Shown piece by piece: positions 13,175-13,230 of a stretch of DNA of 37,672 nucleotides (positions are counted from its first letter, which is position 1; every line of letters begins with the position of its first letter). The notes beneath the pieces were generated by a model that saw only the letters and a list, made by a program, of their open reading frames with translations, did no database searches and was not told the origin of the DNA. The DNA is from Escherichia coli (GTDB lineage Bacteria > Pseudomonadota > Gammaproteobacteria > Enterobacterales > Enterobacteriaceae): the NCBI RefSeq assembly GCF_051903065.1, contig NZ_CP178442.1. The stretch is one strand, 5' to 3'. The position numbers were made by a program, and so were the translations under genes.

Positions 13175-13230
13175 TTCCGCTTCCTCGCTCACTAACTCGC
13201 TACGCTCGGTCGTTCGACTGCGGCGAGCGG
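13175..13230. promoter_or_regulatory. ColE1/pMB1-like primosome assembly site (PAS / single-strand initiation signal) homologue
   Basis: ttccgcttcctcgctcactaactcgctacgctcggtcgttcgactgcggcgagcgg differs at only a few positions from the pBR322 sequence CTTCCGCTTCCTCGCTCACTGACTCGCTGCGCTCGGTCGTTCGGCTGCGGCGAGCGG as I recall it. Confidence 0.5.

What the first reader, a model, noticed from the sequence alone, without database searches (positions are those of the whole stretch)
13175..13230. ColE1-type primosome assembly site homologue embedded in an iteron plasmid
A 56-bp stretch is nearly identical to the well-known pMB1/ColE1 sequence CTTCCGCTTCCTCGCTCACTGACTCGCTGCGCTCGGTCGTTCGGCTGCGGCGAGCGG. In ColE1-type plasmids that sequence lies in the region of the PriA-dependent primosome assembly (n') site used for lagging-strand priming. 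Its presence about 200 bp from the iterons of an unrelated replicon suggests a shared single-strand initiation signal, or a remnant of a past cointegrate with a ColE1-like plasmid.
Basis: partly seen in the sequence, partly recalled or inferred. Interest (0 to 1): 0.5.

Follow-up and report, generated by a model that had tools for sequence, protein, structure and literature searches.

The report
ColE1-type primosome site in IncX4 origin
A 56-base stretch beside the replication origin of this IncX4 resistance plasmid is a true copy of the ColE1/pBR322 single-strand priming signal; the same unannotated hairpin module turns up next to many unrelated plasmid origins, so this is a new location for a known element, not a new kind of element.

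Summary
Window 13175-13230 matches the recalled pBR322 sequence at 53/56 and natural ColE1 at 55/56. Nothing else ColE1-like is in the window, which is IncX4 plasmid pSD11.

In ColE1-type replicons the element lies about 115-170 nt downstream of the origin, where ssiA (the n'-pas site) is. It is a sharp island: 83-98% identical across plasmids whose flanks are at random identity and whose Rep proteins share 26-35%. It is present in IncX1, IncX3, two IncX4 lineages and a small Rep_3 plasmid, but absent from R6K (IncX2).

On the window minus strand, all 20 distinct variants fit one fold in a hand-scored model. It has an invariant outer helix and a 29-nt hairpin capped by a GCGNAGC mini-hairpin on a CGAG block. 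Compensatory changes support the hairpin.

Polarity is fixed relative to rep and iterons, and is opposite to ColE1 ssiA relative to its origin. I therefore infer a PriA-type accessory priming and helicase-loading site on the leading-strand-template side. It is neither a ColE1-like lagging-strand site nor an inert cointegrate scar. Function is untested. Verdict: new member of a known kind, moderate interest.

The parts
13175..13230 (-). Core of the ssiA / n'-pas homologue. The proposed active strand is the minus strand, 5'-CCGCTCGCCGCAGTCGAACGACCGAGCGTAGCGAGTTAGTGAGCGAGGAAGCGGAA-3'.
   Evidence: 53/56 to recalled pBR322 and 55/56 to ColE1. Covariance model R1 scores 85.6 bits, E = 1.8e-20, and finds a single copy in the window.
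13188..13216 (-). 29-nt hairpin (A2 columns 15-43). Its tip is a GCGTAGC mini-hairpin (triloop at 13201-13203) stacked on a CGAG block.
   Evidence: Six pairs change on both sides versus 2.7 in shuffles (1 of 500); slid controls give 0-1. 72 of 95 non-Watson-Crick juxtapositions are G.A or A.G, and the triloop is GNA in 14 of 15 variants. Motif chemistry comes from PMC13037366 and PMC10085684.
13177..13187 (-). 3' half of the invariant outer helix (GCG-AGGA-AGCGG), which contains the AAGCGG motif.
   Evidence: Invariant in all 28 aligned copies. It pairs with 13224-13230 (helices 1 and 2).
13217..13230 (-). 5' half of the outer helix (CCGCTCG, 13224-13230), followed by a conserved unpaired CCGCAG(T) segment.
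   Evidence: The columns are invariant or nearly so.
13142..13174 (-). Weakly conserved extension of the element; GAGCGTAC on the plus strand at 13142-13149.
   Evidence: A GnGCGTA motif about 33 nt from the core is present in ColE1-type, IncX and other contexts. No structure was predicted for it.
12970..13120 (.). A+T-rich region (25-30% GC), the presumed unwinding element, lying between the iterons and the ssi element.
12842..12969 (+). Five iterons with 22-bp spacing (ACCATAAATCTGTCCCC). A sixth, isolated copy lies at 12604-12631.
12817..12851 (.). Three DnaA boxes. Two of them form the palindrome TTATCCACAGCCTGTGGATAA (12817-12837).
11511..12518 (-). Rep_3/RepE-like initiator gene (335 aa), on the same strand as the proposed active strand of the ssi element.
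   Evidence: Annotated as a replication initiation protein in NZ_KM212169.1. NCBIfam RepM/RepE matches fall below the curated cut-offs.

Best explanation
The element is a phiX174-type (PriA-recognised) primosome assembly site. It is homologous to ColE1/pMB1 ssiA and serves as an accessory priming and helicase-loading signal of the IncX4 iteron origin.

Proposed sequence of events:
1. Rep bound to the iterons, together with DnaA at the adjacent boxes, melts the A+T-rich region (12970-13120).
2. As unwinding spreads rightward, the minus strand of 13142-13230 becomes single-stranded. It snaps into a compact fold that SSB is unlikely to melt: an outer helix plus a 29-nt hairpin tipped by a GCGNAGC mini-hairpin on a CGAG block.
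3. PriA binds this fold and, with PriB, DnaT and DnaC, loads DnaB and DnaG onto the minus strand.
4. The minus strand runs 5'->3' toward the iterons. Primers made on it are therefore extended rightward, away from the iterons, which is leading-strand-type synthesis. The loaded DnaB travels leftward.

This is the geometry of pBR322 ssiB or the R1 plasmid ssi, not that of ColE1 ssiA.

Shown here: homology, island-like conservation, the strand-specific conserved fold, and fixed polarity relative to rep. Inferred: PriA recognition, exposure by origin melting, and the direction of synthesis. The site is probably non-essential but improves initiation efficiency or fidelity.
For: - Homology: 53/56 to pBR322 and 55/56 to ColE1.
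- ColE1 placement: in 12 RNAI-positive loci with consistent spacing, the element lies about 500-560 bp from RNAI on the same strand. That puts it about 115-170 nt downstream of the ColE1 origin and makes the AAGCGG strand the displaced strand. The ssiA function is described in PMC3167613.
- Island of conservation: core 83-98% identical versus flanks 45-52% (shuffle baseline 51%). The Rep proteins are only 26-35% identical and the iterons are unrelated.
- Position and polarity: the same in pSD11-type IncX4, mcr-1-type IncX4, pE2863-5-type IncX4, IncX1, IncX3 and a pIGWZ12-like small Rep_3 plasmid. A seventh context, a 1.7-kb Shimwellia contig, has only a tentatively identified rep.
- Fold: supported by covariation, with 6 pairs and 11 cells changed on both sides, 0-1 of 500 shuffles reaching that, and slid controls at 0-1.
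- Strand specificity: 72 of 95 non-Watson-Crick contacts are G.A, and they become Watson-Crick pairs in the Dickeya, Shimwellia and IncX3 variants. The triloop is GNA with all four N.
- Chemistry: these are known hyper-stable ssDNA motifs found at ssDNA priming origins, and SSB binds them poorly (PMC13037366, PMC10085684).
- Precedent: in pHW126-family plasmids, an 'ssi' described as similar to ssi sites of diverse replicons sits beside iteron-like repeats. Deleting it is not lethal but raises copy number and multimer formation. I did not check that this ssi is the same sequence as the 56-mer.
Against: - No experiment links this copy, or any IncX copy, to PriA.
- R6K, the IncX archetype, has no copy, so the element is not required for IncX-type replication in general.
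- Nearest-neighbour folding energies are no better than shuffles on either strand (z = -0.5 to +0.3). The fold therefore rests on covariation and on G.A/GNA chemistry that the energy model does not include.
- The all-20-variants fold comes from a scoring scheme I devised after seeing the sequences. The formal counts use the 15 gapless variants.
- The element also occurs far from any rep gene: next to stbB and hicAB in a 61-kb plasmid, and beside toxin-antitoxin genes in Pantoea and Mixta. Origin-proximal priming cannot be its only use.
- The direction of IncX4 replication is unknown.
- The classic papers defining the factor Y site limits were not available, so the overlap with the mapped site rests on position and on my recollection.
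Confidence: 0.6

Rival explanations
1. The element acts in conjugation rather than vegetative replication. It lies on the transferred strand and primes complementary-strand synthesis after the single strand enters the recipient.
For: pSD11 is conjugative (MOBP relaxase, MPF_T). If transfer runs away from the taxA-taxC relaxase operon, as in other MOBP systems (my assumption), the transferred strand would be the record plus strand. That is the window minus strand, which carries the folded form, about 6 kb beyond oriT. Copies far from any rep gene, such as beside an stb operon in L130, would fit a role unconnected to oriV.
Against: In six Rep_3 contexts (plus one tentative) the element is locked beside the A+T-rich and iteron region with fixed polarity relative to rep, including small plasmids whose oriT lies elsewhere. 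In ColE1 the folded strand is the one displaced at the vegetative origin, not the one expected to be transferred. In L130, by the same assumption, the transferred strand would carry the non-folding complement. The nick site and transfer direction were not determined here.
Confidence: 0.15
2. It is an inert recombination scar: a fragment left by a past cointegrate or recombination with a ColE1-like plasmid, with no present function in IncX4.
For: The window core is 98% identical to ColE1 and to IncX1 but only 83% to pE2863-5, the sister IncX4 lineage whose Rep is 87% identical. The core also has sharp boundaries. Both observations suggest that the allele was imported by recombination. ColE1-like plasmids co-reside with IncX plasmids very often: the element is present in 2623 of 5426 complete E. 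coli genomes, with a median of 2 copies per carrying genome.
Against: No other ColE1 sequence and no RNAI are in the window. A homologous element sits at the same place and polarity in IncX1, IncX3, three IncX4 lineages and a small Rep_3 plasmid. The diverged copies keep the fold through compensatory changes, which requires selection. Import of an allele into an already resident homologous site is compatible with function.
Confidence: 0.1
3. It is a cis-acting control or maintenance element that works mainly as duplex DNA or through another protein. Candidates are a copy-number or incompatibility determinant, or a multimer-avoidance site. Priming is not its main role.
For: In pHW126-family plasmids, deleting the ssi raises copy number and causes multimerisation. 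In pIGRK and pHW126 the ssi-containing fragment shows incompatibility.
Against: The conserved mismatches are purine-purine on one strand only. They are exchanged for Watson-Crick pairs, which is what a folded single strand predicts and a duplex protein site does not. The phenotypes seen in pHW126-type plasmids can be secondary to inefficient second-strand priming. It is not established that the pHW126-type ssi is the same sequence as this element.
Confidence: 0.1

Closest known systems
ColE1 / pMB1 (pBR322) / p15A ssiA, also called n'-pas or the factor Y effector site for lagging-strand synthesis
   Same: It is a sequence homologue: 55/56 to ColE1 and 53/56 to pBR322. The conserved fold is the same and lies on the strand that is displaced at the ColE1 origin. 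In both settings the element is an island of conservation amid diverged flanks.
   Different: The host replicon is a Rep_3 iteron origin with no RNAI or RNAII. Relative to the origin the polarity is inverted: the folded strand runs 5'->3' toward the origin, not away from it. It therefore cannot be the lagging-strand-template site of a fork leaving the origin.
pBR322 ssiB and the R1 plasmid G4-type ssi, which are priming sites on the leading-strand template downstream of an origin
   Same: [quoted passage not shown] The R1 arrangement is from my own knowledge.
   Different: There is no sequence similarity to those sites. The R1 site is recognised by primase alone, not through PriA.
RSF1010 oriV ssiA / ssiB
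   Same: The origin is modular: iterons, an A+T-rich region, then hairpin ssi sites that carry a mini-hairpin motif (PMC13037366). From my own knowledge, Honda et al. 1991 showed that these sites can be replaced by heterologous ssi signals.
   Different: The RSF1010 sites are recognised by the plasmid's own RepB' primase, come as a pair on opposite strands, and have unrelated sequence.
The 'ssi' element of pHW126-family plasmids (pHW126, pIGRK, pIGMS31)
   Same: An ssi-like palindrome sits beside iteron-like repeats upstream of a rep gene. It is dispensable but affects copy number and multimer state.
   Different: Those plasmids are small, have a different Rep family and are reported to use rolling-circle replication. 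I did not verify that their ssi is the same 56-nt core.

Membership tests
ColE1-family ssiA / phiX174-type n'-pas | Sequence homology to the ColE1/pMB1 site | tested here: met
   53/56 to pBR322 and 55/56 to ColE1. The covariance model scores 85.6 bits.
ColE1-family ssiA / phiX174-type n'-pas | [quoted passage not shown] | tested here: met
   Covariation exceeds the shuffled and slid controls. The G.A-rich stem and GNA triloop occur only on the minus strand, which is also the displaced strand in ColE1-type loci.
ColE1-family ssiA / phiX174-type n'-pas | Lies about 100-200 nt downstream of the RNA II/DNA switch, on the strand displaced by leading-strand synthesis (the lagging-strand template) | tested here: not met
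   The window has no RNAI or RNAII. The neighbouring origin is an iteron origin, and the folded strand points 5'->3' toward it. The feature is met in the ColE1-type loci examined.
ColE1-family ssiA / phiX174-type n'-pas | Stimulates PriA (n'/factor Y) ATPase and supports PriA/PriB/DnaT/DnaB/DnaC/DnaG-dependent conversion of ssDNA to duplex | not testable with these tools
   This needs biochemistry or the M13 ssi plaque assay.
ColE1-type replicon (as a remnant of one) | RNAI/RNAII genes or other ColE1 origin sequence flanking the element | tested here: not met
   Rfam finds RNAI in ColE1 (L002) but not in the window. blastn of a 600-nt pUC origin finds only the 56-mer. Flanks are at random identity.
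ABC-primosome site (hairpin with a DnaA box in its stem) | A DnaA box inside the hairpin stem | tested here: not met
   There is no TTATCCACA-like box in 13142-13230 by direct reading. Such a hairpin does exist elsewhere in the origin, at 12817-12837.
G4-type primase-only ssi | Recognition by DnaG plus SSB alone, and similarity to the G4/R1/R100-type hairpin sets | not tested
   No reference sequences were compared. The only shared feature is a mini-hairpin motif.
Rep_3 iteron origin (context of the element) | A Rep_3-type initiator, tandem 22-bp iterons, DnaA boxes and an A+T-rich region | tested here: met

The most novel reading that the evidence does not exclude
The 56-nt core is a portable, host-factor-directed ssDNA cassette: a mini-hairpin on a CGAG block inside an invariant clamp helix. 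Unrelated enterobacterial replicons (ColE1-type, IncX1, IncX3, IncX4, pIGWZ12-like and others) acquire and swap it by recombination. In the IncX1/3/4 plasmids that carry mcr-1, NDM and cfr, it would make initiation partly PriA-dependent, in a leading-strand geometry not described for this sequence. That would give these iteron plasmids a DnaA-independent route for loading DnaB and a common vulnerability.
Probability: 0.25. Interest if true: 0.55.

Novelty: new member of a known kind. Interest (0 to 1): 0.4.

Why it matters
IncX1, IncX3 and IncX4 plasmids are major carriers of mcr-1, blaNDM and, here, cfr, yet their origins are described only as iterons, DnaA boxes and an A+T-rich region. A conserved PriA-type site in fixed polarity next to the melting region would add a host-dependency step to their replication. 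It would explain why a short GC-rich island is ultraconserved while everything around it diverges. It would also give a simple genetic handle: delete or invert it, or use priA hosts.

Annotating it would improve origin prediction. It would also flag a 56-bp identity shared by co-resident plasmids that could support recombination between them. The strand-specific fold gives a concrete structural hypothesis for what PriA reads in this classic site.

Tried and rejected
- Thermodynamic folding of either strand as DNA. z-scores were -0.5 to +0.3, which is uninformative. I rejected this as a test because the energy model lacks sheared G.A pairs and GNA-loop bonuses.
- RNAalifold's alternative inner part of the outer helix (columns 33-36 with 71-75). 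It is broken without compensation in the Arsenophonus variants, so I preferred the CG/CG plus AGGA-bulge version.
- The genome contigs pattern scan. It returned mostly chance hits in GC-rich genomes (Streptomyces and others) and vector-like contigs in unlikely hosts. Only matches spanning 53-56 nt in total were kept as homologues.
- Looking for the element in R6K. BLAST with word size 7, a motif scan and the covariance model at E <= 1 all found nothing.
- The phage collection. It gave only small or mislabelled contigs and cloning constructs.
- A second copy or an opposite-strand partner in the window. None was found.
- The 42-codon ORF at 13128-13256. I did not pursue it: the flanks are not conserved and the conservation pattern is structural.
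- Literature. The classic papers (Marians, Nomura, Masai) and two reviews are not held. No paper in the library links IncX with a primosome. Searching the sequence strings found only vector and primer listings.
- Conjugative-strand reasoning. It gave inconsistent answers between IncX4 and the stb-adjacent copy, so I kept it only as a low-confidence rival.

Full report
**What the window is.** The 37,672-nt window is the complete IncX4 plasmid pSD11 (NZ_KM212169.1; E. coli, swine, China). It carries cfr between two IS26 copies and is rotated and reverse-complemented relative to the record. Around the finding the layout is as follows.
- A Rep_3/RepE-like initiator gene lies at 11511-12518 on the minus strand.
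- An isolated iteron lies at 12604-12631.
- Three DnaA boxes lie at 12817-12851.
- Five 22-bp-spaced iterons lie at 12842-12969.
- An A+T-rich stretch (25-30% GC) lies at 12970-13120.
- The GC-rich element follows, and then a stbD/relE toxin-antitoxin pair from 13884.

Nothing else from a recalled 600-nt pUC origin matches the window. The recalled sequence is authentic: exactly that core is present in RNAI-positive ColE1/pMB1-type contigs. Natural ColE1 (L002) differs from the window at a single base.

**It sits where ssiA is in ColE1-type plasmids.** In ColE1, Rfam places RNAI at L002 4116-4220 on the same strand as the TTCCGC... form of the element, which is at 3501-3556. By the textbook geometry (RNA I starts 445 nt upstream of the origin and reads away from it), the origin is near 3671. 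The element is then 115-170 nt downstream of it. The strand displaced by leading-strand synthesis is the complement, which carries ...GAGGAAGCGGAA. The same spacing (about 500-560 bp to RNAI, same strand) holds in twelve ColE1-type loci; two further Dickeya contigs gave an inconsistent spacing. PMC3167613 describes this site as ssiA, the n'-pas exposed by Pol I extension, which recruits PriA for lagging-strand synthesis. The original papers that map the site were not available. The equation with the mapped factor Y site therefore rests on position plus my recollection.

**It is an island, and it is everywhere.**
- It is in 2623 of 5426 complete E. coli genomes, at 5224 plasmid and 94 chromosomal places. 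It carries no dedicated annotation in any listed hit.
- Compared with IncX1, mcr-1-type IncX4, IncX3, ColE1 and a small Rep_3 plasmid, the core is 86-98% identical while sequence on both sides is 45-66% identical. Shuffled sequences give 51%.
- The Rep proteins of these plasmids share only 26-35% identity, and their iterons are unrelated.
- R6K (IncX2) has no copy by BLAST, by motif scan or by covariance model.

**A strand-specific conserved fold.** I collected 20 distinct variants from ColE1-type, IncX1/3/4, pIGWZ12-like, Dickeya, Shimwellia, Arsenophonus, Pantoea and Mixta sequences. In a hand-scored hairpin model, all of them on the minus strand fit one shape.
- An invariant outer helix, CCGCT/AGCGG plus CG/CG, with an AGGA bulge.
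- A conserved unpaired CCGCAG segment.
- A 29-31-nt hairpin.

On a gapless alignment of 15 variants (A2), the named structure has 6 pairs and 11 cells with changes on both sides. Shuffles average 2.7 and 3.4, and only 1 and 0 of 500 shuffles reach the observed values. Structures slid by 1-3 columns give 0-1 such pairs. Three pairs never break: columns 18-40 (A-T 12, G-C 3), 19-39 (C-G 11, T-A 4) and 26-32 (G-C 14, A-T 1).

Of the 95 non-Watson-Crick juxtapositions in the stem, 72 are G.A or A.G, arranged in tandem. Where they change, they become Watson-Crick pairs in Dickeya, Shimwellia and IncX3. The triloop is GTA (10 variants), GCA (2), GGA (1), GAA (1) or AAC (1). The hairpin tip, C-CGAG-C-GNA-G-CGAG, is thus a GCGNAGC mini-hairpin stacked on a CGAG block. 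The pIGWZ12-like copy with one extra base reads GCGTTAGC, the GCGNNAGC version of the same motif.

Both motifs are documented as unusually stable ssDNA structures. The mini-hairpin recurs at ssDNA priming origins (G4, St-1, alpha3, RSF1010 ssiA) and binds SSB poorly (PMC13037366). The CGAG block of tandem sheared G:A pairs is described in PMC10085684. On the plus strand the same positions would be C.T and T.C mismatches with a TNC loop. Structure and ColE1 geometry therefore pick the same strand independently.

Standard nearest-neighbour folding does not see any of this (z = -0.5 to +0.3). That is expected, because the energy model lacks these motifs. The three differences between the window and pBR322 fall on a position that stays paired (13194), the free N of the triloop (13202) and an unpaired base (13217).

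**Polarity relative to the origin.** The AAGCGG strand is the rep coding strand and runs 5'->3' toward the A+T-rich region, the iterons and rep in each of these contexts.
- pSD11-type IncX4 (the window).
- mcr-1-type IncX4 (L003).
- pE2863-5-type IncX4 (L005).
- IncX1 (L004, L126).
- IncX3 (pNDM-HN380, L131).
- A 4.1-kb Rep_3 mobilisable plasmid (L052, L132).
- A 1.7-kb Shimwellia contig, where the rep identification is only tentative.

In all of them the element lies 200-370 bp beyond the iterons, on the side away from rep. In ColE1 the same strand runs 5'->3' away from the origin. So the element cannot work in IncX4 as it does in ColE1, that is, as the lagging-strand-template site of the fork leaving the origin. 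A primosome assembled on the window minus strand would move leftward, and its primers would be extended rightward. That is the arrangement PMC3167613 describes for ssiB ('for the leading strand'). From my own knowledge, it is also the arrangement of the R1 plasmid ssi and the logic of the RSF1010 oriV.

**Most likely mechanism (inferred).** Rep and DnaA melt 12970-13120. Spreading unwinding exposes the minus-strand fold, which resists SSB. PriA recognises the fold and assembles the primosome. DnaG primes rightward synthesis, and DnaB is delivered without depending only on DnaA or Rep. I expect the site to be accessory, not essential. R6K lacks it, and in pHW126-family plasmids deleting an 'ssi' next to iteron-like repeats is tolerated but raises copy number and multimerisation. 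I did not verify that the pHW126-type ssi is this same sequence.

**Cointegrate remnant?** Not as an inert scar. No other ColE1 DNA is present, and diverged copies preserve the fold by compensation. There is, however, evidence of exchange. The window core is 98% identical to ColE1 and IncX1 but only 83% to pE2863-5, whose Rep is 87% identical and whose flanks still align at 64-73%. In addition, mcr-1-type IncX4 plasmids carry R6K-like iterons plus two relic pSD11-type iterons immediately beside the element. The core behaves like a swappable cassette at a resident site.

**Limits.**
- No functional test was possible.
- The replication direction of IncX4 origins and the polarity of conjugative transfer are unknown. 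A role in complementary-strand synthesis after transfer is kept as a rival.
- Copies remote from any rep gene exist, so the element has uses beyond origin-proximal priming.
- No paper in the searchable library links IncX plasmids with a primosome site. Older subscription literature could not be checked.

**Verdict.** This is a real and correctly recognised homologue of a well-known element, in a replicon class where it appears not to have been described. It has a conserved strand-specific fold and a polarity that changes its likely role. It is a new member of a known kind, of moderate interest.

Noticed in passing
window 12817-12851: TTATCCACAGCCTGTGGATAA is a perfect 9-bp hairpin whose stem is a DnaA box, and a third box follows at 12843-12851. 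From memory, this resembles the hairpin-with-DnaA-box 'A site' of the ABC primosome first found in R6K. If so, the origin may carry two different kinds of single-strand initiation signal, one on each side of the iterons.
   Followed up: no
L003 2490-2941 (mcr-1-type IncX4, NZ_MT929282.1): This origin has six R6K-like iterons (ACCGAGGAAGCTCTCATGTTTA). It also has two relic pSD11-type iterons (ACCATAAATCTGTCCC) at 2793-2808 and 2926-2941, right beside the ssi element. The origin therefore looks like a mosaic in which Rep and its iterons were replaced while the ssi side was kept.
   Followed up: partly
window 13175-13230 versus L005 3012-3069: The phylogeny of the core disagrees with that of the replicon. 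The window core is 98% identical to ColE1 and IncX1 but 83% to pE2863-5, whose Rep is 87% identical. pE2863-5 instead carries the 56-nt GCGNNAGC-type variant seen in pIGWZ12-like small plasmids.
   Followed up: partly
L130 2501-2555 (NZ_CP086485.1, 61 kb); L113, L030, L029 (Mixta, Pantoea): The element also occurs with no rep gene or iterons nearby. In L130 it fills a 130-bp gap between an stbB-containing operon and hicAB. In the Pantoea and Mixta contigs it lies beside small toxin-antitoxin-like genes.
   Followed up: partly
E. coli complete genomes: The element is present in 2623 of 5426 genomes, with a median of 2 copies and up to 23 per carrying genome. 94 places are chromosomal. It has no dedicated annotation in any listed hit. 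A 56-bp identity shared by co-resident plasmids could act as a recombination substrate.
   Followed up: no
window 13142-13149 (plus strand GAGCGTAC): A semi-conserved GnGCGTA motif lies about 33 nt from the core in nearly all contexts, including ColE1, pMB1-type, IncX, Dickeya and Arsenophonus. On the folded strand it reads TACGC, 3' of AAGCGGAA. No structure was predicted for it and its role is unknown.
   Followed up: partly
window 4529-4746 (minus strand): There is an Rfam match to the Bacillus sRNA ncr1575 (RF02452; 110.7 bits, gathering score 60) next to cfr, inside the IS26-bounded cargo segment. This is consistent with that segment coming from Firmicutes.
   Followed up: no
Genome-contig loci L009, L017, L019, L037, L066, L067, L096, L103, L120: Short contigs carrying enterobacterial plasmid or vector origins, including this element, are filed under unlikely hosts such as Streptomyces, Cutibacterium, Streptococcus, Flagellimonas, Rhizobium, Bradyrhizobium and Microbacterium. 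These are probably assembly contamination.
   Followed up: no
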